A stretch of 50,360 nt of DNA, counting the filler, from Bipalium vagum (Eukaryota): the NCBI GenBank assembly GCA_037834085.1. It is 3 parts of 3 records of this genome, joined end to end, with 100 filler letters (N's around TTAATTAATTAA, not from the genome) between each part and the next. Parts side by side here need not be neighbours in the genome. Positions count along the whole stretch, not along the records: positions 1 to 16,874 come from JBBMKC010089008.1; 2 more parts are not named here. One strand, given 5' to 3'. Positions 1,340 to 50,360 of this stretch are shown here, one piece after another (position 1 is the stretch's first letter; each line of letters starts with the position of its first letter). The notes below the pieces were generated by a model. The model searched no databases and was not told where the DNA came from. It worked only from the letters and a program-made list of their open reading frames with translations. Both the position numbers and the translations under genes were made by a program.

Positions 1340-1885
1340 GAAAAATCATTCTAATTTACCGAAAATTTTTAGAATGTTAATTATAGGTCCTTCTGGGTCT
1401 GGAAAAACAATTTTTATATAATGTTATTAAAACAAGATTATATTGATTACAAAAATTTAAGTTTTTTTCTAAAATAGTTTATCGTCAACCAGCCTTGAAA
1501 TATATAAAAGATTGTTTTATCAAAACAAAAAGAATAAGTTTGTTTTGATAAAAAAAAGAAGTTTGTCAATTGTTTGTAAAATGAAACAAAATATAAATTT
1601 GATGAAGAAAACTACAAATATAAAGAAAGAGAAATTAAAGTAACTTTGTCTGATAAAGCAAATGAAATTTAAGCTCCAGATAAATTACAAGAGTAAGAAA
1701 AATTTGATTGTCTTTGACGATGTAATAAATGAAAAAAACAAAATATTATGGAAATGCATTTCACTAGAGGAAGACATAATAAATGTTCAGTAATATATTT
1801 ATCACAACCTTTTTTTGATTTACCTTTAAGAAGTATAAGAAATAATTCCAATCTTTTAATTTTATTTAAGATTAACATTTTTAAA
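1340..1885 (+). pseudogene. A32-like (FtsK-HerA) DNA packaging ATPase of a Polinton/adintovirus, frameshifted and 3'-truncated
   Basis: Walker A FRMLIIGPSGSGKT (GPSGSGKT at 1386-1409) and Walker B LIVFDDV (1704-1724). After a frameshift: HFTRGRHNKCSVIYLSQPFFDLPLRSIRNNSNLLILFK, the RGRH..S...LSQ....P..IR.N signature. Confidence 0.88.
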
Positions 1886-1920
1886 ATAATTTGCACATCA
1901 TTAATTATTTACTATTTTAG

Positions 1921-3045
1921 ATGACAACATTTGTGCCGCAAAATAACCATTTGCGGGAAGCTTTATTATTTTTATTTAATTTAAAGAAAAATGCTGCCGA
2001 AGCACATAAATTATTAGTATAGACTTATGGCAACAATTCTTTAGCTGAAAGAACATGTCGGGAATGGTTTCAAAAATTCAAAAGGGGCAATTTTGACCTT
2101 AATGACAATGCCCACGGAAATCCACCAAAAAATTTGAAGACCCTGATTTTCAAGACTTGTTGGACGAAGATGACTGTCAAACTCAGGGACAATTAGCTGC
2201 TTCATTGAATGTTTCCCAACAAACAATTTTCGATCGTTTACCCGGTTTAGGAAAGATTCTAAAGGTGGGAAAGTGGGTGCCTCATGCATTCACAGAAAAA
2301 ATCCAAGAGCAGTGAAAAACCACATGCTAAATTTTGATCAAAATGAACAAAAGAAAATCTTTCCTTTATCGTATAATAACTGGCGATGAAAAATGGATAT
2401 ATTTCTCCAATCCCAGATGAAAAAGATCTTGGGTTTATCGAGGTCGGCTGACAAAGTCAACTCCACAGCGCAACATTCATGGGAAAAAAGTATTGTTATG
2501 CATATGGTGGGATCAAAAAGGTATCTTGTACTACGAACTTCTGAAACCTGGTGAAACTGTGACTGCCAATCGCTATCAACAGCAGTTAATGCAACTAAAC
2601 GAAGTAATCGCTGCCAAACGACCAGAATGGGCTGATAGACATGGGAAGATAATATTGCTTCATGACAAAGCTCGGCCTCATGTCGCAAAAACCGTTGATG
2701 AGGCTATAAAACAATTGAAATGGGATGTCTTACCCAACCCGCCACTCTCCAGACATTGCTCCGTCGGATTATCATTTATTCCGTTCGATGGCACATGGTC
2801 TGTCAGAGCACAGCTTTATATCTTATGAGGATGTAAAAAAATGGCTAGATCATTGGATTTCTTGTAAATCAAATAATTTTTTCTATGATGGCATACATAA
2901 ACCGCCACTAGTTTGGGAAAACGTTGTCATGAGTGAAGGAAATTATTTTTAATAAAAATCTTTTATAAATTTGCTTTGGTTGTTTTTTATTTATTTGATT
3001 TTAAATAAGGGTAAAAACGGCGGAGTCATATTTGTAGACCAAATA
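1921..3045 (+). mobile_element. Mariner (DD34D, Mos1/mauritiana-like) element; nearly full-length but disrupted transposase; only the 3' TIR retained
   Basis: MTTFVPQNNHLREALLFLFNLKKNAAEAH start, then WVPHAF, TGDEKW, MLCIWWDQKGILYYELLKPG, LLHDKARPH, SPDIAPSDYHLF, EGNYF* (2952). Stops and frameshifts present. TIR-like end aaaacggcggagtcatatttgtagaccaaa+TA at ~3014-3045. No matching 5' TIR seen. Confidence 0.95.
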
Positions 3046-3369: not shown

Positions 3370-4155
3370 GTAACTCTATTATATCTATCAAGAAGCTGAT
3401 TTTCACCGAACAAATATAAGGGAATGCCGATTACGCGTTTCTACCTTAAAGTACAACAGCGGCATGTACAGCCACAATTCCATTATTTCTGTAAAGCTCT
3501 TACCACGAGAAGTACCAGTAGCCGCTGCTGTTTTAGAAAACGCTTTTTAAATTTGATAAAATGAGAATTGATGACAGGATAACAATCGCTGTTAAAGTAG
3601 ACACCATAACTCGACAGGTTGTCACAAGAGGAACAATTTCGCATAATGGAGAATGTGAGGGAGATCAGAAAGTATTAAATGGAAAAGAGGTTAATGAAGT
3701 GGTTGATATCGAAGATAACCAAATTGAATTACTAGCTTATGAAGGAGTTTTTGATGCTAATACTGGCTAATTACTATCCAGACCATCTTGTAATACGAAA
3801 AAAGATTTTTGTGTCACACAGAAAGCCACTCTATTATACAAAGCAGTAAAAATCTGCGATTTCTAAAAATGAAATCTTTTCAAGAAATATCCGGAGTTCA
3901 ATCTGTAGTGTCTCAAAACGAATATAGCAAAATGCCGAGTAATTATCAAACGGCGCCCCGAAGAAGCTCAACAATGGACAAATCTAAAACACCTATAGTA
4001 TTAATTACAACCGATAAAAATGAAATTATCCGATTATTAATAAAAAAGGAAGTTGTCAAATGTGGGGTAGCAGTTCAAGAAACCCACTATAAAGGTATTT
4101 ATGTAACTCAGCAGAAAGTACCTTCAGTTAAAAATAATTCGGATATAAAATTTTA
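3370..4155 (+). pseudogene. Chuvirus-like viral glycoprotein (env-like), N-terminal half, degraded
   Basis: IYQEADF..TNIRECRLRVSTLKYNSGMYSHNSII (cf. the Q...CK.....CGMHSH.S pattern), GTISHNGECEGD, KCGVAVQETHYKGIYV. Multiple stops and frameshifts. Confidence 0.75.
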
Positions 4156-4189
4156 TTTCAAAAAAAAAATTTACATGCTAGATAAATAC

Positions 4190-7150
4190 AATTAAGATCT
4201 TTCAGAATCAAATGGGCATTTGACATCGATTAAAAATAGTTTTTTTGATTTCGTGAATTCAATTTGCAGGTCAATGTGCAGTGTTGATTGAATGTATTGA
4301 ATCTCAACATTGATAGATACTTTTGCCTCTGTGTAAGATAAAAGTTGTTGAGCTAGATAATCTTGAATTGAATTGTGAGAGAGAATAAATATTCTTGAAG
4401 GTAAACATCCAAAGAGAACATGTGTTAGTGATTCTTCTAATTCCGAGCATCTGCGACATCCTCTGTTTGCGCTTCCATGCTTGCATTTATTTGGATAGAG
4501 TATGATCGTGCTTTATGGATAAAATACCAGACTGAGATAGATATTTTCCCCTGAAATATTGGTGTTGTTGACAGCTTTGAAGACCCAATACTCATGGCAA
4601 ATCTCTCAGCACTTTGTTGACCACTCCATTTTTGGTTCCACGAGTTTTGTACGAGTGTATGAAGTAATTTTGAGTCTTCAGGATTGATTAGAACTTCACG
4701 TTTCGTTTCTTGTTCAAGGCATTGGGCAAATTTGAGACAAATGCCTTTTTCATTTTTTATGAATGAAAGTGATAGAATGCCTATTTTTCAATTGGGAGAG
4801 AGCAGCTCTAAATTTTGTCCACCAGCAATTCAGTTGACAATGTTTATCACATTTATTTAGCCCTGTAAGAGCATCCTCAGTTGAGCACAATCTAGAACCT
4901 GTTGAGATTTTGGTCGAATTACAAAGAGAAGAAATAGAAATATTTGCAGTGATGTCATCGACGGAGGACAGTAGTTGGAAGCCTTGTGTCAGTGATTGTA
5001 TATAATATTCATTTAAGATTGAGATCAGACCAAGCCCTCCGACCTTTCGAGAAGAATACAAGTATTTAATAGATGACTGACGACCAAGGCCAAAAATTGA
5101 TTTAATTATTCTGCGGACAATTGATTCAATGGCATCTTTTCAGTATGTCAGATCTTTATGCGACAAGTAACAGTTGCGAAAAGAAAAAATTTACCAGATT
5201 TGGGCAGCATTCCCATTCGAGAAAGACATTCGATGATGTATTTGACACTATTATTACCGAAAGCGTCTGCTACGTCTAAAAATGCCATGTGCAATGTCAT
5301 GTTGAGTAATTTTCGTTGGCGGTCTAATAGTGAACGAAGTACAAAATTTGATTCTGCGCAACCATTAAATAAACCGAGACTTTTTTGCATTGGATGCAGC
5401 AGGTTATTTTCGTTGAGCCAGCCCGAGATTTGACGATAAAGAGCAGAAGCAAAAATTTTGTAGGAGCATTCATTCTAGAGAAGCTATTGGACGACATGAG
5501 TTTATGTCATCATATTAACCCTGCTTCATTGGTTTTAGAATAAGTTGTGTTCGGAAAGATTTCCATCGTTTAGGGATTTCGTGATTTGCCATGATGCTGT
5601 TTAGTAAGAAAAGATGAAGTTCGTAGATCGGATGACAGTATTTTATATCTGAATAAGATATATTACTCAGACCTTATGCGGTATTCTTAACACCTTTCAT
5701 TATCCTATGAATTTCATCAGATGAGAGTGGATAAAAATCAAAGTAAGGACCATGTTTTATTAGATTTTTGAGATCTGTTTGATGCCAATCAACTGGAGGT
5801 GGAGAGATTGTTTTTTTCATTATAGTAATCGTAGATGTTTTGTATAGATGAATTACGGTCAGCTACTGTTTCGTCAATTATTATTTGGAAGGCAATCGCA
5901 GGTTTGTATAAGAAGACTTTTCGAAGGTTGTAATCTGTTACAGGTCTTTTTATTGATGATCATAAACAATCGTTTTTCCTTTATTGGACGCATCTCGAAT
6001 ATAATTTTTACAATTTTATTATCAGCCTCATCGTTTGAACATATTAATTGTTTAATATCATCCAGGAGTTTAGCAGCGAGCTGTACTCTGTAAATGTACG
6101 TATTTTGTACCTGTTAGTGGTGGCTAAAAAATCGTGGATCAAGACAATATATTGATTAATAAAAACATCGCAGACGAAAAGAACACAATAATTTTTTAAA
6201 GTGTCAAAGTATGGAAAGAAGATCATGGTTTTGTCTTGAAACATTTTAAGTGTGAAATACGTTTTAATGAATTCAAGATTTTTAGTGACTAAGGCTTTGG
6301 ATATTATTGGATTGGTGACAATAACATCCGGAGAGTTAATATAATGGAAGCAGTATGTAACAATGTGTTTATCCTTGAAAAATAATAAACCTGAGAGGTC
6401 TTTCAGCGAAGAATTGAATGTTGTGGAATCAGTAGAAACAGTAATCTTATTGAAGGAGTTACATGAATTTCCTTGGTCTGAGAGCCGAGAGATGAGTCGA
6501 CTAGATTTTAAGAGATTGTGTACTTTTTTTGGAATCTCTTTGATGTACAAGGGAGTTATTGAAAAGTTATAATCATCCAATTTATGACTGATCATTGCTC
6601 CGTAGACAGCAACAAATCGTCCGCAATCATAGTCATTGTTCTGCCTGGTAATAGTTAATTCTCAGTGAATGACTCTTGTATTCAGTTTAAAAGATTCTTT
6701 CAAAGCTTCAATAAGATTTCTAATCTGTTCATGCACATACTCAGGCATGAAAGCGGATGGAAGAGGATTAAGGTAAAAGGAAACTCTAGTTATTTTACAA
6801 AAGAAAAATATGATCCAATGTTTGTTTAGGATATTCAGTGGAAATATGAGCCTTTCAGCTATGTACGCTTCAGGCGTTAAAGCCGGACACGATTCATTTC
6901 TATTGGCAAGGCCAAATACAATAAGAGTATTGACAGCAAAATTTTGAAAGTTATTCACATTTTCGGACAAATAACAATGAATGTCGATATCAGTAAAAAG
7001 AGAATGATTATAAAAAGGAAATTCTTTGTCTGATTAAGTGATATCAGTGCTATCTACACCTGTCAAATCTATTAGATTTGAATCAGAGTAGACTGTTGTA
7101 GGCACTATTTGTCAATTCTCAAATTACTTGTGGCTCAACCAGTTTCAATC
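4190..7150 (-). mobile_element. NeSL-like RLE non-LTR retrotransposon (Ulp1/C48 protease + RT + CCHC + restriction-like endonuclease), degraded and internally deleted
   Basis: Minus strand in order. Ulp1: RLIFPLNILNKHWIIF...QNNDYDCGRFV (Cys codon 6623-6625). RT: WKSFRTQLILK...RPIA...YKIF, QKSLGLFNGCAESNFVL...AFLDVADAFG. Thumb: YLYSSRKVGGLGL. Then WYFIHKAR, CCHC knuckle CRRCSELEESLTHVLFGC (4405-4458), SHNSI, and RLE LHIDL...LIDVKCPFD (~4207-4290). Confidence 0.9.
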
Positions 7151-7160
7151 TTATTCTAAT

Positions 7161-8110
7161 TATAAAGGTATTTATGTAACTCAACAGAAAATAACAAAAG
7201 CTTCAAGTAAAGATAGTAACGATATAAAATTAGTCTTATATATGAACAACAAAGTAGATTATCTATACCACTATCTACAAAAACAATTAAAGGATGTCTA
7301 CCAAGAAACAATATTAAATGATTGTAAGCTGGCAAAGGAAGTAATGAAAAATAAACTATTAATAGCCATAAATAATCCCGAATTAACTTCACATCTAATA
7401 ATTCAAAACTGTGTTTTTGGAAGAAGAATGGGTGAAGTACTATCAAGTTACAAATGTTTAAAAGTTAATGTACCAATAGCCCGATACAATGAAAGCACCA
7501 GTGATTTACCAGTGTTAAATCAACAAAAATTATGATTCGTAGCACCAATTGCACAAATACTGTTAGAATTTAACGTACATCCGCAACGATCTATTTGTGG
7601 ACCAATTATATCGCCTATATAAGATTGGTGAACAATGGATCTCCTTACCAGAAAGTAAACCACCTCGAGAAGCGGTACAAACTATTGACGTATTAGAGCT
7701 ACAAAACATGATTGAATTCCAACCTCTTCGAACTATAAACGATGGTGGTATATTCGCTATGAAAGATATTGAGCAAGGCAATAAATTAATTTCATTTCCT
7801 CAGGCACAAGAAAGAGGTATCATAGAAATGATAACTAAAATATATAATCAACTGACGGGAAAAACAGATTACAATTTATTATTTGGCGCAGAGCATTATA
7901 TGCATGCAGCAAAAAAAATGTAATTTCTTATATTTGGGGAGGATTCACAACTTTTGGTACATGGGTGGCAGGATTCTCAGGCATATATTTCATTTGTCAA
8001 ATAATAAAAGGCATTGGGAATAGTTTTATGTCCGGAAAAAGTTTGCATCATGCATGGAGAATTATATTGGCAATTTTTCCTCCAATTGAAAACAGATAAT
8101 TGCACAAAAA
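7161..8110 (+). pseudogene. Chuvirus-like viral glycoprotein, C-terminal half including the membrane-proximal and TM region
   Basis: LYMNNKVDYLYHYLQKQLKDVYQETILNDCKLAKEVMKNKLLIAINNPE...MGEVLSSYKCLKVNV...DLPV...FVAP...LYKIGEQW...GGIFAMKD...FPQAQE, then IWGGFTTFGTWVAGFSGIYFICQIIK and AWRIILAIF. Colinear with chuvirus G and chuvirus-derived env proteins as I recall them. Confidence 0.82.
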
Positions 8111-8290
8111 ACATAAAAAAGACATCGAAGCCATTAAAAAATATGCACTTCAATACAAGACTGTTAATCATGTATCAAAACGGAGACGACATCATAGCCA
8201 TAGTAGTCGAAAACACCATTATTCTAGTAACATTAACAATAACAATGAAGGTGGTTAACCGTTGTCAATATAATGAGACTGTCGTGAATT

Positions 8291-8900
8291 AAAGTTGTTT
8301 ATGGTGCAACTAGTCTCATTTATAATAAATGCAAACGTAAACCTCAAGTACCTTCTTTACCCTCTCCTATAAAGAGGATGAAAACAGTACTAGATAGTGG
8401 ACAAAGTAGACATTCTTTGTATCCTCAAACGGGGCTGACTAATCATCGTCAATCTTTACGCGATAATGATGTAATATTACGATTAGGAATACCCCAAAAA
8501 CCGGCATGCATGATCACAGAAGATCAAATAAATGATAATCGACCATATGTCCGCATTAAAATCAATGACCATTCTTTATGTGCATTAATTGTAACCGGTT
8601 CAATAACTTCTCTTATTCACAAATCAATTCTCACACCAAACGAATTACAAATAATGAATAATACAAGAAAAATGGTATTAGGCATAGGAAGCATGCCGTA
8701 CTACCTGGTATGGACACTGAGTTGTCAAATATAGTTATTGAATCACCGATTATTTTGTAACATCAAGGTTGGAGAGGATAACGCACATAAATGTGTACTT
8801 GGAATGGATGTACTAAAACAAATTCCCGATTTAATGTTAATCTTTGCCACAGGTGAAGTCTTTGATGCGAAAAATCAAATACGCCAAACAGCTCTCCAGG
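8291..8900 (+). pseudogene. Retroviral-type aspartic protease (retropepsin) remnant, N-terminal part of an LTR-retroelement pol
   Basis: NRPYVRIKINDHSLCALIVTGSITSLIHKS (D-T-G active site mutated to V-T-G), flap KMVLGIG, C-terminal CVLGMDVLKQ. In-frame stop at 8732-8734. The frame is open upstream to 8288. No RT motif visible downstream. Confidence 0.85.
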
Positions 8901-9148
8901 CGTTAGTCCAGCAGCTAACAATGAAAACACCGCCTCCAACGACGATCCTGAAAATACCCTACATGAAATCATTGATCTATCTCAAACGGCAAATACGCAA
9001 ATTATCAACCACGTCAATATACATGGTGATTGATAATTAACTCCTTATTGAATTATTGAATTATTTTTTTAAACTTATAAGGTATTTATAACATAAATTA
9101 AATCGATCATTTTCATATTAAGATTTAAAATTAATATGACCAAGCGTT

Positions 9149-9310
9149 GGTGCTCCTCCACATTTTGCTATCATTGTTCGTCAATGGCTGAATAAACATT
9201 TTCCTGGGAGATGGTTAGGTCGTCATGGTCCTCATGAATGGCCGGCCAGAAGCCCTGATTTAACAACCTGTGATTTTTTCCTTTGGGGTTGGTTGAAGGA
9301 GAAAGTCCCA
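9149..9310 (+). mobile_element. Tc1/mariner DD41D (rosa/VS-type) transposase fragment
   Basis: GAPPHFAIIVRQWLNKHFPGRWLGRHGPHEWPARSPDLTTCDFFLWGWLKEKV; 41 residues lie between the expected second Asp (just before GAPPH) and the third Asp. Confidence 0.9.
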
Positions 9311-11379: not shown

Positions 11380-12207
11380 TGACACAATCCCGCTGTGGGG
11401 ATTTTTCGGCAGATTAGTTAATGGATTCCCTGACAGGATCCATTAGCCTTGATAAGACTATCTCGGCGTAGAAATAGTTAATGGCTATTAGGGAAAATAG
11501 CCGTCTCTAAGCGTAACTATAAAAGGAGACGTTAATGGCAGAGTCCCCAAAAGAAAATAAAAAGAAAATTCAATTCAAGAATATTCCATTTGCGCCGAAG
11601 ACGATTCAAGGAGATTCTATTTGCGCCGAAGACGTATCAAGGAGATTTCGTTTTACCAAAAACGTTGCAAAAATATTTTCGCAGAAGACTGTACCAGGAT
11701 ATTGGCCGAGGATGATTTCAGTAATTATTTCTCTCAAGACTACGATTATGCAGCCGGATTTTACAAGGGGACCCAGCGACCTTGGGAACCTCTAGGTGAC
11801 CTGAGAAGGGCCTAGAGGGTGACTCGGGGACCCCTTGTCGCTCTTGGTGAGACCGATCCATTTAATTATTTTGTTTTCGTTATTAAATTATTATTATTAA
11901 TTATTGATTTGATTATATTTTTCTTTAGTATTAACGTTGTCATTGAACTTGGTTTTATTTCATTTTATTCGTTGATAAAGTTTCGGTTTTAATTTGAATT
12001 GATTTAGAAGTTGTAATTGTTGTGTTAGAGCGAATAAAGTTTTATTTTAAGTATTTTAAATTAGTTCTTAAGGGTGCGGATACAGTATTGTGGAGTGTGT
12101 TTTGATTCGAAAAGGTTGAGAGGAATTATGGACACAACGATTTATAAAAAGTAAGGAGTCACGTGCACACGAGCACAGGATCACACGTTCTAAGTATAAT
12201 AGTAACA
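11380..12207 (+). repeat. LTR-like interspersed repeat, copy A (related to 34080-34830)
   Basis: Starts TGACAC and ends GTAACA; TATAAAA at 11518; AATAAA at ~12033; internal ~30-bp direct repeat (atttgcgccgaagacg). Shares colinear blocks with copy B. No TSD found. Confidence 0.55.
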
Positions 12208-16874: not shown

Positions 16875-16974
16875 NNNNNNNNNNNNNNNNNNNNNNNNNN
16901 NNNNNNNNNNNNNNNNNNTTAATTAATTAANNNNNNNNNNNNNNNNNNNNNNNNNNNNNNNNNNNNNNNNNNNN
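16875..16974. other. Artificial contig linker (44 N + TTAATTAATTAA + 44 N)
   Basis: Exactly 100 bp. The 12-mer gives stops in all six frames. An identical structure lies at 33552-33651. Confidence 0.97.
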
Positions 16975-33551: not shown

Positions 33552-33651
33552 NNNNNNNNNNNNNNNNNNNNNNNNNNNNNNNNNNNNNNNNNNNNTTAAT
33601 TAATTAANNNNNNNNNNNNNNNNNNNNNNNNNNNNNNNNNNNNNNNNNNNN
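33552..33651. other. Artificial contig linker (44 N + TTAATTAATTAA + 44 N)
   Basis: Same structure as 16875-16974. Confidence 0.97.
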
Positions 33652-34079: not shown

Positions 34080-34830
34080 AAAATCTCACCACCGAGTTTA
34101 ATTTATGGCTATTAAGGAAAATAGCCCTCTCTAACTGTAGGGGTTGGTGATCGTAGACAAATCTCTACGTGTATATAAAGAGACGGCTATTCCCAGAATA
34201 TGACCAAAAAATAAGAGGAGTTTTACATTATCATTATTACGTGGAAGAAGATTGTTATTGTCTAGCAGAAGATTATTATTTCTTAGAAGTGTTATTGCCT
34301 AGAAGGATATTGTTTTGGACGCGAAGAATATTTCGAAGAATATTGCCAAGGATCATTTCGTCGGAAAAAAAATTAGTAATTTTGTTTATGTTCGTTAATG
34401 ATGACATCGCAAAAGGATTATACAAGAGGTCCCAGCAAGTTTGGGAATCCCTAAGTGACCCGCATAAGACCTGGGGACCCTTTTTCGCTCCGTGTAAGGC
34501 TTTTCTCGATTTCTTTTTATCTGTTTTGTGTTCTTAATTTTTAATATTCTTTTGAACTTCATTTATATTACATATTATTCTTAATCATAAGGTATTTTAA
34601 CGTGCATTTGTGTTAAATTGATTTTCAGACAGTTAATCACTTTTGATTTTGATTCTTGAGTTCGTTGCAAATTTTGGTGATTCGTGTTAGCAGTTCAGTT
34701 TTGCATTATAATAAAGTTTAATAATAAATTTGACTCAGCTGCTGTGCAGATAAAGTATTATTGTGGGAGTTTTAATTCAAATTGTATTTAGCTTTGTACA
34801 GTGACAATAGAATTACGAGCACAACATTGT
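34080..34830 (+). repeat. LTR-like interspersed repeat, copy B (related to 11380-12207)
   Basis: Blocks shared with copy A, in the same order: tggctatta.ggaaaatagcc.tctctaa; TATA + gagacg; tacaag.gg.cccagc...ttgggaa..c.ta.gtgacc...ggggaccc.t..tcgctc; aataaagttt; gtgc.gata.agtatt; gaatta.g..cacaac. Confidence 0.6.
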
Positions 34831-35794: not shown

Positions 35795-38700
35795 ATGATC
35801 TACAATGTATGCATTCCTATTAGTCTTCTGATTTTATGTGTACTTAATGCTCCTGTTACTATCAAAGATACTAATGAAGAAGAAATCCACGATGGGACTG
35901 TAATAATAATCTAATTTTGGTTAATTATATCAAAATATTTATTATAGCTGCCCAGAGTAGAATATGGAAATTATTTGAAGCAAGTCATCGAAGTATTGGA
36001 AACAGATCCAGAATTTAAAAAGAAAATTGAAGCACTGGGTAACGATTCTGATGTGAGCTTCTTGTGATTTGTTATGACTCGTTGTGTTAGTCGATAAATG
36101 CTGAGGAAGTTATAATTTTTATTTTTTGTTAGTCAGATTTATATAAAATTATAATGAAGAATTCAGAAATTAGACGAACATTTATACGAAAAAATTTTTA
36201 AGTATGAATTGCTATTTAGATTCCCGAGGCAATTTTTGGGCCACTACGAAACTGAAATTATTTTAATCTTTATTTTACGGCTTCCATATCGGGCTTAGTT
36301 TTATTTATTTCGTAACAGATAAATCTTAAAGGACTTCATCAGATCTTTATTATAATGTGTTGGTAGTTGTATCAAGATTTTTGTCATTAAATGTTTTTAT
36401 TTTTATTCATTTATCTGGAAAGTACGAAATTTTGTGAAAACACCTCATTTTAATGGGGATCTCTCCAGTTAAGAAAACTGTTAACCGAGGCCGTTACATT
36501 TTGTTCTAGAACTATCACTGACAGGCTTAACCGTGTGATAAATAACTATTTTTGGAATTAATTAGCCTTTTAACGAAATTTTTAAAAAAATTTTTAGGTA
36601 AAAATATTTGTTTATTACATAGTTTGCAATCGATTTAACAAGTTCCAAACGCCAGGTCAACTTGTAAGTCAACGCTGTAGTATTACTAAGCTTAAATTCG
36701 TAATAGTAAATCTTTCGCTTTTGCTGTTTTTTAAATAATCTTTGAAATAATCAAAAGAATATTAAAATCTGAAGCAGTTAAACAAAGCCTTATTATTTTG
36801 TACATAATTATCATTTTTCTTATGAAAATTGTTAAAATGTTTTCTTACAAAAATACCTTACTGTGAAACCTAATTTATTTTTCGAAAACCTCAATCCAAA
36901 AATTTCCAAATTACTAGGGTGAAGCAAAAGTTCGTGCTCCGAATCTGGAGCAGAAATTGAGGTGGTATGTAAAGAAATTTATTAATCGAAACAAAGAAAT
37001 TGGTATTTTGACCAGATAAGAATGCTAGCAGATCGGTGGCGTAAAAACATTCAACCTGATGGACTTTATTTTGAAGAGTAGTGTTATTGTTGTAAATAAA
37101 TATATAATTTTGAGTACGAACTTTTGTATCACTCTAGTACAGTGGTTCTCAACCTAGAGGTGTTATGGTAGGTGTTCAAATCATTACATGTGAAAATTCG
37201 TGTTTTATGATGCTATTAAATAAATAGTTTGATGCTGATTAAACTAGTTCTGTTCACAATTACCTTAGCAACTACAGTTAAGTACTTTATAGGTAATGTT
37301 ATTATCTGATAATCTTATTATAGGTTGATTTTATTAATAAAATTTGTTTTATTAAATATGGTGAGTTATGACTTATTTTTAGTAATATTGACTTTCTTTT
37401 GGGTCGCCAAGATCTTAAAAATGGGGAAATAGATTGTCATAGAAAAGGTTGAGAACCTCCATTCCATTATATTAAATATGGTGTCAGAAGGGAGATAACA
37501 ATTTTTAAATTGAAGTTAGAATAGAAGGATTTGTATATCATCAGATTACAAATGAACTATGAACTTTAGGAGATAAGACGTCATTTACTTATATTTTTCA
37601 ATATTATTGATTATTTAACTTTATTAAAGATATTCAAAAACAGGTCTTCCAACTTTAAATTTGTATTGATTCATTTCTTTTTCCGATTTTTACGCCTATT
37701 TTTATCGTGGGTTACATAATTTCATTACTGCAACTGTTATCATGATTTGTAAAAATTGTTAAGCCTAGAAAGAATTTTTATTGATTATTAGATTAATTAA
37801 AATTTCAAGAAAATGTCTGATTGGGTAAAGATTTATTTCATAATATATATTGTAACTCGATTATACAAACATCACTGTCGCGACAGAAATTCACTTTCCT
37901 TTATTATTTTTGATTAGAATTACTTTTGAGTATTATTAAAAATTATTATTATTTCCTAACAATTGGTTTATAACTCTTAATATATAATAGAAATAACGTA
38001 ATTTTAATATCTGCATTTTTCACAATTTTTACAATCTTGTATTTTTTTATGTTTAAATTGGAATAATAAAGTAGGAAAGTTAAATTGTTTATGTTTATAC
38101 TTTTATGAATTTCTCTGTTTTTCTTCCATGTAACTATTTCATATTATGGATCAATCTAACTAGTGACCCATTTCTTTAAATAATTAGTGAGTTATTTTGT
38201 TCATAAATCTGTTTTTTAATTTTAATATTAATCAAATCAGTTACTACTGGGACAGTGTTTCCAAACTTTGGCGATCAAATGAATTTATGGGCGATGAAAA
38301 TTGAATACAGAGTTAGTGGGTGAGCAACTGTGAGCAAATTAAAATTAATTTTCATAACTTGTATGCATTATGAAAAAAGGACATCTGAGCATTAATATAA
38401 GACTTCTAACTTTTTTGCAAATAAATTCGCAAAAATTACAATCTTGTTTTTAAAAATCTTTTAAGTAGTTGAATGCTGCTCAAAAGCACGATACCATTCG
38501 TCTATTTTACTGTTATAGTATGTTATATATATCTTCTTGGATGTTATAGAAGTCACTGTCGACGCCTTATTTGTATTAATTGCTCTCAAATGTCTTTATC
38601 ACCTTAAAAACTCTTTTACTATCAATTATTTAATACATTTTAAAAAATTATTTTATTATTCCAAATGACAAGCTAATCAATTATATATTCACCACTGTTA

Positions 38701-41700
38701 TCAATTATCGTATTCCAACGTTCTTCATACTTAACGATTCCATTTTTGAAAATGCTAAAATCTTTGGATTTGAAAAAAGTCGTTAATCTAAATTTGACAT
38801 TATCAATATCTTTGAATGATCTTTTCCTCAAATCATGTTCCAGAGACCAGAATAGATAATAATCAGACGGAGTCATGTCAGATGAATATGGATGATGCGA
38901 TATAACATCCCATCCCAGGTGTTTGATAATCGCTTGTGTCATTCTTGTGGAATGAATATTATCCCTTTCGTTTGAAAATTAATTTTTGAAGTAACCGGTC
39001 CAATTGATCATAATAAATTGCAGAATTAATTGTCGGACCAATTTTTAATAGTTCAAAATGAATTATCCCAATATAATCAAATCATAAATATAGAACCTTC
39101 TTTTTATTCTCTTACTGTTAGAATTTGGGTTTCACCTGAAGAGAGTTACTGTTTTTCCATTTATTAGTCTTAAACAAGCTAATTTTTCATCACAGTGATA
39201 ATTATATATAGAAATGGGTAATTTTTCTGTTTTATCAACAAATCATTACAAGTTATTCGACACTGAATTTGTTATTTTCGAAAGATTATGAGGAACAAAA
39301 ATTCTCTTTTTTATTAACTTTGCCAATTTTGTAGGTGTTTTCTTTACAAGCTTTTGTACGCCAGTAAGTCAACATCCAGCTTGGTTGGCCTTTCAGAACG
39401 ATGACCACCAGAAAGTTCAAAGTCACCAGATCCACATTTGTTGGCTTTCGTTGGGCCTCAAAATATTACCTTTATACTGCAGAAATTTCTCTTGTGCTGC
39501 ATTTTTTTCTTTATGGAACAAAAACATCATACAATGCTTCAAATGAGTCTCATTGATTTCTAAATAAATGAAGACAAAATTAATTATAATCTTGAAGAGC
39601 ATGAAATTTACTCTAAAATAAATTAAATTGAACAGACTAATGCATGGCATATAAGGTAATTAACTTTAAATAAGCATATTAAGTGATTGATTAATTTCAG
39701 TTTCACCTGATTAAATCCTGAAAATTATCAAAATTAGGTGAATTTGATACTAAGAATCACACAGCCTGTTTATATTATTTCCAGAATATTAAATTTCTTC
39801 CACAATTATTCAAATAACTTATTTTTAATTAGTGATCACGTGTTCAAACTTCTGTTCATAGGAGCTTTTAGAGTTGAGAAATTGCATATTCTGCTCAATT
39901 ATTTATAATTATTAATTATATAATCGATAATCAATAATAGAATTTTTGTATATTTTGCATAGAAGAATTATATTTAACTAAAACATTTATGATATTAATT
40001 TTTATATGATTCTTATTGATTAAAGTTTTTAAAAATTTATCTTCTGTTAAAAACTTTTCTTTTGACATCCAGATAATGAGTGTCGTAAGTCATTTCGAAC
40101 TGGTTTCGCATAATGTTCGCACAAGGCTCGACGAATTGAAGCGAATTGAACTGAACAGGTTAAACAAAATGGAAGCAAGATTGGAGAAACTTCAACAAAC
40201 CAGTAGTCAAATGTTAAGTAGGGTCGACAAAGACCATGTCAATATAGTTAACAATCACAATTTTGAAAAAGAGGACTTGCGTCGATTGATAGCGAAGGCA
40301 TGGATTTCTTATGATTTTAATGAATTGACTTCACATATGAAATAGACTGTAGAGATTGCAAATAAATTGGATCTTGAGGCCGAAGAAGAGTATCGTCGGT
40401 ACCAAATGGAAAAAGAAATGATGAGAAGATTGAGATTATCGAAAATCAAGTCAAAGGAAATGCGAGAAAAACAAAGATTATTGGACGAGGAAGCCCAACG
40501 AAGACACCGGAATCATCCTGCTGTTCATTACCCGGTAGGTTGAATACTGATGATTTCGCTTAAATCTATCGTTTCTATTATCATTTCATTAAACTTGCAA
40601 AATTATTCAGTGATGTTCTGTGATGTTCTTCGAGTTTAGATGCTGAATATCTTTTCATTTAGTTTTCATTTTATTTTTATAACAATGTTATCACATTTCT
40701 GACTCATAAAAACCGTCATAAATAAAGCAATTTTTTAATCGAAGCAATTTTTTAATCCATAAGAACTTTAAAACAACTAAGTTGTTTTTAATTCATTTTA
40801 ATTTATTGCTATACCCCAAAAACCGGGAATCTCTTAATAAATGATATAGTATTACGTATGGGACACTGTCGAGAAAAACACAAATCGTCGTGCCAGTACT
40901 ACAAAAGCTCAGTTAGTCTACAGAATTAAAGAACTTTTTGAGGCACTTCCAAGGGTAAGTATGAAATCAGCATACTCCAGGTTCCGGAGCGGCATCCATT
41001 ATGTAATAGACGCCAATAGTAGTTATTTTGAATAAAATAATGTAATTTACTTGTGTACTGTATTTCTTTGAAACATAAAATTTTTTAGTTACCAAGAAAT
41101 CTTTCTTTTTCTTGATGAGACTGTCAGATTTATCCCGAACACCCTGTAGTTAAAATTTCAATGTAAAACACTGATTGCTCAATGGTCCTTTAAACTTGTC
41201 TGAAGGAGCTAATGAAAATTGTACAAAACACATTTTTCAAGTGAATTTTCAAATCTTTTTTAACCTTGTATGGCATGTGTTAAGTGAAATGATGTCATTT
41301 AAGGGATAGTACCAATTCAGATTATCTGTGGTGTTAAATATCAATATCTATTACTGAAAAGAGAGTGCTAATTACATTCGTCAAAATTCATGAATGATTT
41401 CAGTGTTCATTTATTTAATAATGATTGGTCGATGTCTTCCTACAAACAATTCCGCTCTCTTTTTCTGCCATCATCATAAAATATACCACTCCAAATTTCT
41501 TATTGTTATTGATAATATAATAAAAATATTGATTTTTTAAGACCTTATTCTAATTTTCCATTCAGGGGACAGAGGAGCAGCTGAAAGAAGTTTGGGAAAA
41601 GGAAGACAAGTTGGATCCAAACTCTTTTAATCCTGTTACCTTCTTCAGGCTTCATGGTTACCTTTTTTTGTAAATCAGTTTATTAAATAGTTTCAATTTT

Positions 41701-44700
41701 CTTTAAAAATTTTTAAAAAAATTAATTTTTTGATAATGGCTTAAAATCTTGAGTTTAATCTATAGTTAATATTGATCATAATACTAGGATGATGCAAAAG
41801 TTCGTGCTAAAAATTATATTATTTATTTACAATTATTACACTACTCTTCAAAATTAAATTCATCAGCTTCAATGATTTTATGCAACCGATCTGCTAGCAT
41901 TCTTACTGGTCGAAGTACCATTTTCTTTGTTTTGATTCGAAAAACTCTTTACAATATAAAATTTCTTTACAAGATTTTTTGAGGACGTTCTTTTGCATCC
42001 CATTAGTTTTAGATTATTGCGAAAGATTTGAAATACCTTTACAACTGTGCAAATTATATTTAAATCATGAATTAATATTGAATTAATTAACATTAAATGA
42101 ATTTTTAAAAATATTCACACTTGTTATAATTTCTTTAAATAGAAATGATATTCGAATCCTATTTCGATATTGCTGGAAGCGAAGGTTTTCAATCAGGGAA
42201 ACTACAAAGGAGATATGTGATATGTTGAAGACGTTGGAGACAACTGTTTCTCATTGGTACAAACGTTTTAGCTGCAATGATACAAACTTTGAAGATCAGC
42301 TCAATCTGGATGGACAATGATGACTGAGGATGAGTCATTATCGAGCAGTATTTGGTGTTGATCACAAAATAGTTTTGAGACACTTTTAGTCACTTGATTA
42401 AGTTCATAAGAAGCAACGTGCAGACTCATATAAAGTAATTAAATCTCAAGTCAATCGACGCTTTGAAATTTAAGAAATCAAAAATTTGTTAACTTATTTT
42501 CTCGTTTGATGAAAAATAGATTTACCTTATAAATTACAACCAACAAAGGAAGTGGGTTGCAAGAGGCCAGGCTTCTCTATCAATCTCAAGCTAAAGTCAA
42601 TTCAGTAAGAAAGTGATGAACTCTGTTTGATAGAATCTTGAAGGCTTTCTTTACTTTTAAATTATTGTTTATTAAAGAGAAGTATCCGATACTGGTTCGT
42701 AGAAACCCGATTCTCTTCCATCAAAACAATGCTAAACCACAGAGGACAAAGAAGAAGCAGAATAAGTTAAAAAAATTGGACGAGGTCGATGTTCTTTCGC
42801 ATTCTCTTACAGCCCAGATGTTGCATCATTGGATTATGGAATCTTTCTATCCATGCAGAACTTCTTACAAGGTCATCGATTCAATTCATTTAATGAATTT
42901 GAAAAATTGTGCAAAAATTTCTTTCAATCAAAGCCCCAGGAATGGTACTTCAAACAGATCAACAAGCTTATAGAAAATTGTCGATAATGATGGAATTTTT
43001 AAAATATATCTGTGCAATTGGTTTTTGTTAAAAAAAGCAGGATAATAATTTTTTTATTACTTTTGTGTAATGTAAATTTTAAATTTAAATGTGAAATTTA
43101 AGAAAAGTTTCAGTTTTAAAAATACTAATCAATAAAACTTAACTGAAAGTAACTGCTAACGTGGTGATCATCACCAGATAATTCCTGAAACATTTCTTGA
43201 ACTGTAAATTTTCAGAATAAACGATAATGTTGAAAAATCTGTGTGCTAATTGGTACTCTAAAAACTGTAAGGAAAACCGGTTTGATAATAAATCAAAACC
43301 ATTTTTTTTTCAAATTTCAATCCTGTCTATTAAACAAAATTATATTTTTAAAATAATGATGATTTATCAAATATAGAAAATCTATTATATCAGTTCATCA
43401 ATTATATGGTTTAGTCAAATAAAATTCATATCTATTAGAAATCAATAAAAAAAAGATTTTGATTTTGTAAATTTAATTAATCAATAAAATCAAATTGAAT
43501 TGTGAAATGTAACAAAATTTCGATAAAACCAATTTCATTTATCAATTTTGAATGAGAAAGATTAAAAACGTTTTGTGTCACTTATTAATATATATTTTCC
43601 GTAGATACCAACGAAGATAGTCATCTAGACATTGCTGAGATTGAAGCCATAATGCAAACGGAGGTAGTTTTCTTTTATTGATATGAATAAATATAACGAA
43701 ATTTTTGCATTATTTTCTTATGGGTACATTATTTCTGTTTAGAAAGTTCTTGGGGTATTTTATATTTATACATAGTTGATCGAAGATAATCAGCAAATAC
43801 TTAAAAATTGGCTGCTTTCACTGAATGTAACTCAACAAGTAATTTGTATGAGAAAAATTGATATGAGAAAAATTCATAAGGCTGGAAAATGAATACCTTT
43901 GAATTGACATAAGAAAAGGACAAAAGGAAAATAACTTTACTAAAATATTATTGAAAGGAATAAAAGAAAGTTTTTGGCATTCCGGATAATTAGTGTAGAT
44001 GAAAATTAAAATTATTTTTGAAATCCTAAATATTCGTTTATCTAGGCCGATATACAATTTAAACATAAAATACGAGTGGATGATATGAGCAAAAAGTATT
44101 TTGTACAATATTCTATTGAATCCAATGGAAACTGTTATTAAAAATTGCAGTGAAAATTCAGTTAAATCTAATTTAATGATAATTTAAGTCAGTTTCATAT
44201 TTTAAAATGTTAATTTTTAAATGACCAAGATTTTATGAGTAAATTTACTTTTTAAACTATTAGAATTATTAGTAATATTCAAAATCGATTTACTCTTTTT
44301 TACGTTATATATTTTTGAATAATTTTACGAGATATTTATTTATTTAAAATGTTTTGATATTTATTTGATATTAAAAATAATAAGTGGAATTTTATTTGAA
44401 ATTTAAAATGTGCTGGTGATTATAAAGTAAAGAGAAAGTTGGAAGATTTAATTACTGAATCAATTAATTAATCAATATAAGTAGTTGATTTAAACAATAT
44501 TTATCAGAAGACTATTGTATAATTGTTATATTTTATCACTGTGGTGCACGAAATGTGCTTACAAAATGCTTCAACATATGTCAAAATTTGTTAAGATCAA
44601 ATATTTCCTTCATGAAGATATTTCACGAAAAATTGTCTATCCTACATGTCAAACTATTCAAAAGTAATCTCTTCACTGATCTAACATCAGAAGTGATAGT

Positions 44701-48270: not shown

Positions 48271-49960
48271 ATCAATATATTTTATAACTCAATAGTCGAT
48301 TCGAGTGTTTCTCTACTATTATTATTATTTAAAATTAAAAGTCCTTTTATTGAAATATTAATATTGTGAGATAAATTGAAAATTAGTCCATGCGCACGTG
48401 AAGGTCCCGAGCTTGAATTCCGGTATCTCCGATTAATTTTCAACTAACAAATATTACATAAACTAACTAAAGCTTTATGTAAATCTAAATCTGCTAGAAT
48501 TTATTTCTTATAATTTAAAGATTTTCCTAAACTAGAAGATTCTTTTACTTCGAAATGTTCAAAATTGGTATCCATTTATTACTTCAATCGTTTTTATTTC
48601 ATAATTACAAACTTAAAATAAAGCATTTAAATAATAATGTTTCTAATAAAATTTTAAAATTTATTATTTCATTTTTATTTAACAAAATTAATAATGTATG
48701 TTTATCATTTTGTTCACTGTTATTACAATTTATTCAATACATTGAATAGCGTATTCTAACACCATAATAGTCTTATAAGTTAGCATTTCGAGAATTCGCC
48801 TATCGAAATATTTTGATTCATTATTTGTCTTATTCAAATTTTGTCTAATTTCACTTTTAATTTCAACTTAAAACCTTACTTTCAAAATTTATTTACTATA
48901 ATGGATATTTTTATTTAATATTGCAACAGTATATTCACTTAATTCAAATTTCTATCCCCTTCTTTAACAATGTTTCTTATTTATTATAAAATTATATTGT
49001 TTATAAATTTAATTCGTAAACGCTATTGGTTATTTAAGTAAAAATTATAAATTGTTAACTTGAAAGTACCCAGTAGAAATTTGTATGGAAAAAAAGTTAA
49101 TGTGAAATTTTAAATGCAGTTCATATTTTTGATTTGTAATAATTTTAAAATGGTAACAACACTGTTATTATATATTTAATTATTAATTTTTGAGGTGCAA
49201 CTTTTTTTGCCGAAATAAATTTAACATTTGAAATTCAGTAAATATTATTATATTGTAAGATACACTAATACTCAGAACATTATTTCATTTATCATTAAAT
49301 TAAAAATTTTCAATTTCAATTTCATAATATATTAACATTCAAATATCATGGTGTCATAAAATAAAATAATGGAAAATATATAAAATTAAGATATCTAAAT
49401 CAACATTCAAAGATTATGACCATTGATTCAATTTCTCAAAACTCCCGTGTTTACCAAAATTGAAATAATAAAAGTTTAGTTTACAAAGAATAATATTTCA
49501 CATTGTATATGATTGGCGCGTAAGTAATGCAAAGAGTTATTTTGTATGGTCAGTTTTATTTACGAAAGAAAGTTTATAATTTGTTTGACATCATTGTGCA
49601 GTCTTCTTTTAGATATTTTGTTATGGTCTAATTTTATTGGCTTTCTACATTTGTTTAAATTAGTCTTGTTTTAGATATCACTTAAAAAGAGTTCTTTCAT
49701 AAGGAATCCAGAGCTTTCATAAAAACTAGCCAGCTGTTAAATATGCTAATGAAGAATATACTTTAGAATAAACTGTTACATTCTTTATTTAATGAATAAA
49801 TTTTGTTAACTTTAAAAAATGCATTACTTATGCGTCAACTTAATATATTACATTATAACCTAATATAAATAAATAAATACAAAAGCACAATAAAAAAATA
49901 TCAAAACTAAATTGCATTGGTATATTTATTGATGAATCAAAAACTACATCAAAAATTTAC

Positions 49961-50360
49961 TTCCTTTGACATTCAATTTTAGTTTCAAATTAGAATCATT
50001 ATTCTTCAAATCAGCATTTTTCATATCCAAACAAGTGTTATCTTTATTTTGTGTGTTCAGATCAACTTTAAAATTGATATCATGGTCTTTATCGTTATCC
50101 CTGTTGATACTTAAACCATTGCTATCTTTATTTTTACCGTTCAGGTCTAGCTTGAGCTTGATATCTCGATCAATTTCATTAATCTTCTTGATATCGATTC
50201 CATTCTTATCATTACATTCACCATTGAGATCTACTTTAAACTTGAAATCACTATCTTTGCCATTATCTCTCTTAATATTTATACCATTGTTATCATTACT
50301 TTGTCCGTTGACATTAACTTTAAAATTGAAATCATGGTCTTTATCGTTATCCTTATTGAT
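49961..50360 (-). CDS. Partial exon of an unknown Asn/Asp/Lys-rich 28-aa tandem-repeat protein (runs off the window end)
   Basis: 133 open codons from 50360: INKDNDKDHDFNFKVNVNGQSNDNNGIN / IKRDNGKDSDFKFKVDLNGECNDKNGID / IKKINEIDRDIKLKLDLNGKNKDSNGLS / INRDNDKDHDINFKVDLNTQNKDNTCLD / MKNADLKNNDSNLKLKLNVKG. Probable GT donor at 49960; otherwise a stop at 49944-49946. Confidence 0.75.

What the first reader, a model, noticed from the sequence alone, without database searches (positions are those of the whole stretch)
3370..9040. Chuvirus-like fusion glycoprotein placed directly upstream of a retropepsin: a possible env-before-pol retroelement architecture
Seen: a chuvirus-like glycoprotein (3370-8110, split by a LINE) is followed on the same strand, ~450 bp after its TM region, by a retroviral aspartic protease, with no recognisable capsid or CCHC gag between them. 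The intervening DNA encodes a basic stretch (KRRRHHSHSSRKHH, ~8180-8220) and a segment VVYGATSLIYNKCKRKPQVP...HSLYPQ that is in frame with the protease. Established: chuvirus-type glycoproteins have been captured as env-like genes by LTR elements (e.g. the mosquito Copia element Anakin), and env normally lies 3' of pol. Inference: the ancestral element may have had a G-(tail)-PR order, possibly as one polyprotein, i.e. an unusual enveloped retroelement lineage. This is the best candidate here for an undescribed system, but the copy is heavily decayed.
Basis: partly seen in the sequence, partly recalled or inferred. Interest (0 to 1): 0.8.

Follow-up and report, generated by a model that had tools for sequence, protein, structure and literature searches.

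The report
Decayed envelope-before-protease retrotransposon remnant
This is a broken leftover of a virus-like jumping gene in an animal genome whose envelope protein sits in front of its enzymes; the odd order is real and shared by many relatives, but it has already been described in worms and other invertebrates.

Summary
A Monjiviricetes-type fusion glycoprotein (G) is followed on the same strand by a retropepsin (PR). The junction is native. Among 153 G relatives retrieved, 14 carry a PR, and in all 14 G lies directly before it in one protein. Three read Gag-G-PR-RT-RNaseH-integrase end to end, and the one tested (P0152) has a Ty3-like Pol. The window's G groups with these 14, and spacing and a tail motif match. 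The order is not new: GAG-ENV-POL gB-type Ty3/gypsy elements are published for nematodes, bryozoans and flatworms (PMC13524379, citing Sacco 2022). Anakin is Pao, not Copia (PMC7642597). The window copy is a dead fragment with no gag, RT, integrase or LTR. The two G halves overlap by about 36 diverged codons. Seen in relatives only, and not found in my literature searches: 2-4 protease copies (9 of 14), a YP tail motif (11 of 14) and a second membrane domain after integrase. Likely mechanism: one membrane-threaded polyprotein in which Pol rides into particles on the spike's tail (inferred). Verdict: new member of a known kind.

The parts
3377..4190 (+). N-terminal-side piece of the class III (gB-type, chuvirus-like) glycoprotein; 5'-truncated, three frames, one internal stop
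   Evidence: tblastn with relatives, E to 1e-26; best blastp matches are the G-PR polyproteins and partial proteins; break count
4088..4195 (+). Left copy of a ~36-codon G stretch that recurs at 7161-7280
   Evidence: 77% over 71 nt; differences by codon position 13/5/13, 2 synonymous and 17 non-synonymous codons of 36
4192..7150 (-). Inserted decayed non-LTR retrotransposon of NeSL/R2 type: Ulp1-like protease (~6581-6850), RT motifs (~5150-5650), CCHC and restriction-like endonuclease motifs (~4192-4510)
   Evidence: Peptidase_C48 E 3e-4; RT and endonuclease by motif in the translation, weak R2 RT match E 0.9; Ulp1 domain known in nematode NeSL and Utopia (PMC4640811 passages)
7161..8147 (+). 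C-terminal piece of the glycoprotein: ectodomain half, main TM (~7944-8006), second hydrophobic stretch (~8055-8090); three frames, two stops
   Evidence: PF24664 E 2.6e-28; phmmer best hit E 6e-28, 42%
8100..8255 (+). First part of G's cytoplasmic tail, in G's frame, with the basic/His-rich stretch (8178-8219)
   Evidence: aligns weakly to the tail of P0152 (z 3.0, 3 of 300 shuffles)
8288..8533 (+). Rest of the tail/linker, in the protease's frame, with the LYP motif 38 codons before the protease (~8417-8425)
   Evidence: YP at 10-45 residues before the first PR in 11 of 14 relatives; window position
8534..8860 (+). Retropepsin (aspartic protease) domain, inactivated (active-site aspartate absent, stop at ~8732)
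   Evidence: profile from relatives E 9e-16; 28% over 106 aa to the first PR of P0003, E 2e-10; Pfam E 6e-4
8861..9040 (+). Open continuation after the protease, unassigned; the element ends near here
   Evidence: no significant match to the PR-RT spacer of 9 relatives; no Pol hit

Best explanation
The locus is a dead, doubly truncated fragment of an enveloped Ty3/gypsy-type LTR retroelement with the order gag-env-pro-pol, later hit by a NeSL/R2-type LINE. SHOWN in relatives: one protein reading (Gag capsid, CCHC) - hydrophobic signal-like segment - class III fusogen ectodomain - TM - tail - retropepsin - RT - RNase H - integrase. INFERRED mechanism: the polyprotein is threaded through the ER membrane. 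Gag stays cytosolic ahead of an internal signal peptide; G folds in the lumen as a gB-like trimer; the TM returns the chain to the cytosol, so PR-RT-RH-IN hang from the spike's tail. Pol would then be packaged through Env rather than as Gag-Pol, and freed by the adjacent protease after budding. The YP(x)L-like tail motif may recruit ALIX/ESCRT for budding (weakest step). The window copy does none of this today.
For: G before PR in one protein in 14 of 14 PR-bearing relatives among 153 proteins. RT after PR in 8 of 14 (plus the start of RT in P0013), integrase in 7, gag marks before G in 6, all of these together in P0005, P0026 and P0152. P0152 Pol best matches Ty3 Gag-Pol, E 1e-128. P0152 (3761 aa) lies on a 12,004-bp contig and P0005 (2627 aa) on 9,084 bp, leaving little room for splicing. 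The window's G falls in one node with all 14 (SH-aLRT 91); P0003 is the top match for both the G piece and the PR. TM-motif-to-PR distance 197 codons against 109-369 in 10 relatives. All 14 G proteins examined that have an N-terminus carry an internal hydrophobic segment just before the mature start, 148-1364 residues into the chain. AlphaFold model of natural relative P0004 (mean pLDDT 84) matches herpesvirus gB, Foldseek E 2.6e-13. Same order published.
Against: The window holds no gag, RT, integrase or LTR, so its own Pol class is unseen. G and PR are now in different frames with stops between. Linker homology is significant for only 1 of 14 relatives (P0152, z 4.5, 0 of 300 shuffles, best of 42 tests). 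G-versus-PR similarity correlation is not significant (rho 0.51, p 0.06), and the PR tree does not place the window's PR. The 21-row G node is not starred (91); the smallest starred set (26 rows, 96) also holds 5 proteins without PR. 8 of 14 polyproteins show no gag mark before G. No DNA of any relative could be fetched, so single-ORF status and LTRs are not verified on DNA. Two distant G relatives are fused to Pol pieces differently (P0050 RT before G; P0125 G then RNase H). Foldseek TM-scores are low (about 0.33, rmsd 11-12 A).
Confidence: 0.88

Rival explanations
1. Chance junction: a deletion fused the env of one element (gag-pol-env order, or a chuvirus EVE) to the protease of a neighbour.
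For: G and PR are in different frames now; linker homology weak in 13 of 14 relatives; the region is a pile of decayed elements.
Against: The nearest G relatives are G-PR polyproteins; spacing within their range; the YP motif, found in 27 of 54 stand-alone G tails and 11 of 14 polyprotein linkers but only 3 of 16 times before later PR copies, lies in the PR's frame here.
Confidence: 0.05
2. The G is a Maverick/Polinton fusogen (MFUS-1-like) belonging with the A32-type ATPase remnant 1.7 kb upstream, and the PR is unrelated.
For: Pox_A32 E 9e-5 at about 1360-1650, same strand; nematode Mavericks carry a gB-like fusogen (bioRxiv 10.1101/2022.07.12.499685 passages).
Against: A mariner lies between them; both G pieces match gypsy polyproteins best; Mavericks use an adenovirus-like protease, not a retropepsin. 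MFUS-1 itself was not compared.
Confidence: 0.03
3. Gag-less element or host-domesticated G-PR gene: the G-PR cassette was functional on its own.
For: No gag or RT in the window; 8 of 14 relatives show no gag mark in the same protein, and P0001, P0002, P0008 end after several PR copies without RT.
Against: The window copy lacks the signal peptide, has at least five frame changes and four stops and no active-site aspartate; the gag-less relatives' N-termini align to the post-CCHC region of gag-bearing ones, so gag is probably upstream.
Confidence: 0.04

Closest known systems
GAG-ENV-POL HSV/gB-type Ty3/gypsy errantiviruses of Nematoda, Bryozoa and Platyhelminthes (Chary and Hayashi, eLife 2026, PMC13524379)
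   Same: gB-type env placed before pol; Ty3/gypsy Pol (in relatives). Supplementary file 1 lists 36 nematode, 10 bryozoan and 9 flatworm elements (term counts halved).
   Different: The passages read do not mention a fused polyprotein, repeated proteases, a tail motif or a post-integrase membrane domain (zero hits for 'fused', 'polyprotein', 'fibronectin'). Their sequences could not be compared, so clade identity is untested.
Nematode endogenous retroviruses, NERV (Sacco et al. 2022, J Gen Virol 103:1739)
   Same: Env and pol in flipped order in a metavirus (as cited in PMC13524379); a continuous gag-env-pro-pol ORF (recalled; paper not held).
   Different: Host of the window unknown; RT monophyly with NERV untested; whether NERVs have repeated proteases is unknown to me.
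Anakin (mosquito Pao element with chuvirus glycoprotein; PMC7642597)
   Same: Same glycoprotein family captured by an LTR element.
   Different: Anakin is BEL/Pao; the Pol of the relative tested matches Ty3, and G precedes PR.
Maverick MFUS-1 (bioRxiv 10.1101/2022.07.12.499685)
   Same: gB-like class III fusogen in a mobile element.
   Different: DNA transposon, stand-alone ORF, adenovirus-like protease.

Membership tests
GAG-ENV-POL gB-type errantivirus / NERV | Class III gB-type envelope protein | tested here: met
   PF24664; model of natural relative P0004 matches herpes gB, E 2.6e-13; the window's own protein was not folded
GAG-ENV-POL gB-type errantivirus / NERV | env upstream of pro-pol on the same strand | tested here: met
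   G 7161-8147 then PR 8534-8860; 14 of 14 PR-bearing relatives alike
GAG-ENV-POL gB-type errantivirus / NERV | gag upstream of env | tested here: inconclusive
   Absent from the window, which is cut inside G; present in 6 of 14 relatives
GAG-ENV-POL gB-type errantivirus / NERV | Ty3/gypsy RT-RNase H-integrase after PR | tested here: inconclusive
   Absent from the window; RT in 8 and integrase in 7 of 14 relatives; Ty3 best match for P0152
GAG-ENV-POL gB-type errantivirus / NERV | Flanking LTRs and tRNA primer site | tested here: inconclusive
   No flanking direct repeat in self-comparison, as expected of an internal fragment; primer site not searched; relatives' DNA not obtainable
NERV (Sacco 2022) | One continuous gag-env-pro-pol ORF (feature recalled) | tested here: inconclusive
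   Met at protein level in P0005, P0026, P0152; broken in the window; not checked on DNA
NERV (Sacco 2022) | RT clade membership and nematode host | not testable with these tools
   No RT in the window, no NERV sequences on hand; Ulp1-bearing LINE only hints at a nematode
Anakin (BEL/Pao) | Pao-type Pol | tested here: not met
   Relatives show RVT_1, RT_RNaseH_2, Integrase_H2C2, rve and no BEL/Pao-specific Pfam family; Ty3 best. Tested on relatives only
Maverick/Polinton fusogen | Stand-alone fusogen among PolB, capsid and ATPase genes inside inverted repeats | tested here: not met
   Only an A32-type ATPase remnant beyond a mariner; G groups with gypsy polyproteins
Chuvirus endogenous viral element | G alone or with viral N or L, closest to stand-alone viral G | tested here: not met
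   Closest relatives are G-PR polyproteins; most stand-alone ~650-aa G proteins fall in the other half of the tree

The most novel reading that the evidence does not exclude
The window marks a distinct clade of enveloped gypsy elements whose whole proteome is one polyprotein crossing the membrane up to four times, flavivirus-style: Gag | signal | gB-like spike | TM | late-domain-like tail, 1-4 retropepsins, RT, RNase H, integrase, (retropepsin) | second signal | FN3-like ectodomain | TM. Pol is packaged on the spike tail; repeated in-element protease duplication supplies intramolecular dimers where a trimeric spike offers an odd number of monomers; the post-integrase protein is a separate attachment factor, giving a herpes-like split of binding and fusion in a retroelement.
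Probability: 0.3. Interest if true: 0.68.

Novelty: new member of a known kind. Interest (0 to 1): 0.36.

Why it matters
The env-before-pol order is published but, in the text I could read, not explained mechanistically. The relatives found here make a testable model: with env in the middle of one ORF, Pol cannot be packaged as ordinary Gag-Pol and must follow the spike. They also show repeated proteases and a second membrane domain that I did not find described. The window itself adds only one decayed, partial copy.

Tried and rejected
Word-index protein searches with the window's PR (0 of 817 candidates) and G piece (0 of 237) found nothing; the full HMMER scan did. The cluster look-up for 10 relatives could not be made, so their hosts are unknown. 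Two scans of bacterial/archaeal genome contigs for stray copies found none (0 of 21 and 0 of 89 pattern matches confirmed). PR tree (19 rows) did not place the window's PR. G-PR similarity correlation not significant. No match of 8830-9040 to PR-RT spacers. Troyka considered and dropped: no envelope (PMC12440569). ESM Atlas on the post-integrase domain of P0152 gave only FN3-like leads at 0.78, below its 0.9 mark; cross-similarity of that domain among 5 relatives is clear only for the near-identical P0007/P0151 pair and marginal for P0151/P0152. A two-element origin of the G halves was tested by codon position and is not supported by synonymous excess, nor excluded. Searches for prior description of repeated proteases, the tail motif or a fused env polyprotein listed nothing on point by title and abstract start; Sacco 2022 and most subscription papers are outside the library, figures and bioRxiv supplements were not visible, so absence from print is not shown.
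Full report
Observation. The window is AT-rich animal DNA (GC mostly 17-37% per kb; a nucleobindin-like exon at 40010-40345, NUCB1_N E 3e-17) full of decayed elements. The glycoprotein is real: PF24664 Monjiviricetes_fusion, E 2.6e-28, and tblastn with relatives maps it to 3377-4190 and 7155-8147, each in three frames. The protease is below Pfam cutoffs (E 6e-4) but scores E 9e-16 at 8534-8827 with a profile built from relatives only; it lacks the active-site aspartate and has a stop near 8732. The basic stretch (8178-8219) is in G's frame, which closes near 8256; the segment from 8288 is in the protease's frame. Between the G pieces, on the minus strand, lies a non-LTR element with a Ulp1-like protease (E 3e-4) and RT and endonuclease motifs seen by eye (R2 RT only E 0.9). 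Ulp1 domains are described in nematode NeSL and Utopia elements (PMC4640811, passages), a hint at the host and no more. The G pieces overlap by about 36 codons, 77% identical over 71 nt, with 2 synonymous and 17 non-synonymous codon differences: a long duplication at the insertion followed by decay, or two copies; undecided. The G-PR junction lies wholly in the right piece and is unaffected.

Relatives. Two word-index searches failed. A full HMMER scan with the 153-residue right G piece gave 214 hits, 150 listed. Pfam on 19 long hits found a retropepsin after G in 11; a local profile over all 150 found the same 11; a search with P0005 added three. In all 14 of these 153 proteins G lies directly before the first PR, in one chain. 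RT-RNase H follows in 8 (and begins in a ninth), integrase in 7, capsid and/or CCHC marks precede G in 6, and P0005, P0026 and P0152 hold everything. P0152's Pol matches Ty3 Gag-Pol best, E 1e-128. P0152 takes 11.3 kb of a 12.0-kb contig and P0005 7.9 kb of 9.1 kb, so splicing artefacts are unlikely, but no DNA was seen: the cluster look-up could not be made and two contig scans were empty. Two distant hits join G to Pol pieces otherwise (P0050, P0125); both lie outside the window's group.

Does the window belong with them? In a quick tree of 102 rows (101 of 153 proteins covering over 200 residues of the query; 52 left out) the window's G sits in a 21-row node with all 14 polyproteins and 6 proteins without a PR (partial, or ending at or just after the TM) (SH-aLRT 91, not starred); the smallest starred set (26 rows, 96) adds 5 more without PR; the window's branch is long. 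P0003 is the top match for both G and PR. The TM-motif-to-PR distance is 197 codons against 109-369 in 10 of 11 relatives measured. A YP dipeptide lies 10-45 residues before the first PR in 11 of 14 relatives (8% expected; range chosen after looking, rows not independent), before later PR copies in 3 of 16, and in the last 70 residues of 27 of 54 stand-alone-length G proteins. It is thus a G-tail feature, and in the window it stands 38 codons before PR in PR's frame, which argues that tail and protease were one ORF. Against: the linker aligns significantly to 1 of 14 relatives only (P0152, 0 of 300 shuffles), G and PR similarities correlate weakly (rho 0.51, p 0.06), and the PR tree leaves the window unplaced. 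No gag, RT, integrase or LTR is in the window: the copy is cut inside G and just after PR.

Mechanism. Shown: domain order; an internal hydrophobic segment just before G's mature start in 14 of 14 proteins examined, 148-1364 residues into the chain; a gB-like fold for natural relative P0004 (pLDDT 84; Foldseek E 2.6e-13 to HSV-1 gB, TM-score only about 0.33). Inferred from established membrane-protein biogenesis: Gag is cytosolic, the internal signal opens the ER, G is luminal, the TM stops transfer, and PR-RT-RH-IN are cytosolic and tethered to the spike, to be packaged with it and cut free by the protease. YPXnL motifs bind ALIX in retroviral budding (PMC8402826, passages); strict YPxL occurs at this place in 4 of 14 relatives and in 14 of 54 stand-alone tails, while the window fits only the loose form, so a late-domain role is a lead.

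Features of relatives only. 9 of 14 have 2-4 retropepsins, all with an intact D-[ST]-G motif; copies within P0008 and within P0013 group together with strong support, pointing to repeated duplication; 4 have a PR after integrase. P0005, P0007, P0021, P0151 and P0152 carry a further pair of hydrophobic segments after integrase enclosing a 200-400-residue domain; FN3-likeness is a weak lead (motif by eye). P0004 and P0001 have a weak Bcl-2-like match before G (E 1e-3 and 0.2). The window shows one PR and none of these.

Comparison with what is known. Chary and Hayashi (PMC13524379; abstract, section 5 part 1, sections 14 and 22, passages, rows of supplementary file 1; bioRxiv version passages) report that nematode, bryozoan and flatworm errantiviruses carry gB-type env in the order GAG-ENV-POL, in several clades, following Sacco et al. 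2022. That paper is not held; I saw only its title and one citing sentence, and its continuous gag-env-pro-pol ORF is from my recall. Anakin is a Pao element (PMC7642597, abstract and passages). Maverick fusogens (bioRxiv 10.1101/2022.07.12.499685, passages) are a weak rival because an A32-type ATPase remnant lies upstream. The window works like a GAG-ENV-POL errantivirus and meets the two features it can show; gag, Pol class and LTRs are inconclusive because they are lost, and clade identity with NERV is untestable here. Searches for repeated proteases, a tail late motif or fused env polyproteins in such elements (zero hits for 'fused', 'polyprotein', 'fibronectin' in PMC13524379) found no description, within a library that lacks the key paper; figures and bioRxiv supplements were not visible.

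Verdict. New member of a known kind, interest 0.36. The bolder reading, a clade built as one multi-pass polyprotein with spike-tethered Pol, multiplied proteases and a second surface protein, has probability about 0.3 and would deserve about 0.68.

Noticed in passing
window 1347-1900 (+), with 850-1260 upstream: Decayed A32/FtsK-type packaging ATPase (Pox_A32 E 9e-5), probably a Polinton/Maverick remnant; the upstream segment has no Pfam match.
   Followed up: partly
window ~1945-2950 (+): Mariner transposase remnant (HTH_48 E 8e-18, Transposase_1 E 7e-25) between the ATPase and G.
   Followed up: partly
window 4088-4195 and 7161-7280: About 110-bp diverged duplication of G flanking the LINE; if a target-site duplication it is unusually long (a rotifer R9 element makes about 126 bp; recalled). 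The LINE's endonuclease motif abuts the left copy, so its 3' end looks truncated.
   Followed up: partly
window ~9130-9310 (+): Short Tc1/mariner-like transposase fragment right after the element's end, recognised by eye in the translation; no Pfam hit.
   Followed up: no
window 11380-11860: GC-richer island with short internal repeats and a TATA-like site; a 36-nt piece recurs at 34099-34134. Possibly a solo LTR or element end; no protein match.
   Followed up: no
window 40010-40345 (+): Nucleobindin-like host exon (NUCB1_N E 3e-17).
   Followed up: partly
window 49944-50360 (-): Open frame made of 84-bp (28-residue) Asn/Asp/Lys-rich repeats running off the window; no Pfam match.
   Followed up: partly
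window 36968-37139 and 41782-41953: 173-bp inverted repeat pair, 84% identical, 4.6 kb apart, enclosing a mariner-like ORF and the nucleobindin exon.
   Followed up: no
window 16875-16974 and 33552-33651: Assembly gaps: N runs around a 12-base palindromic linker.
   Followed up: no
proteins P0001, P0002, P0003, P0007, P0008, P0013, P0151, P0152, P0153: Two to four retropepsin domains per polyprotein, some after integrase, with C2H2 fingers between copies in P0151 and P0153.
   Followed up: partly
proteins P0005, P0007, P0021, P0151, P0152 (after integrase): Second signal-like segment, ectodomain (weak FN3 lead) and TM at the C-terminus.
   Followed up: partly
proteins P0004, P0001; P0008, P0020, P0151, P0152, P0153 (between gag and G): Accessory domains: weak Bcl-2-like match in the first two; a shared unnamed helical plus ubiquitin-like-looking block in the others (shared by alignment; fold guess by eye).
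   Followed up: partly
protein P0005: A complete animal-type retroelement polyprotein is deposited as a hypothetical protein of a Flavobacteriaceae MAG, most likely a contaminating contig.
   Followed up: partly
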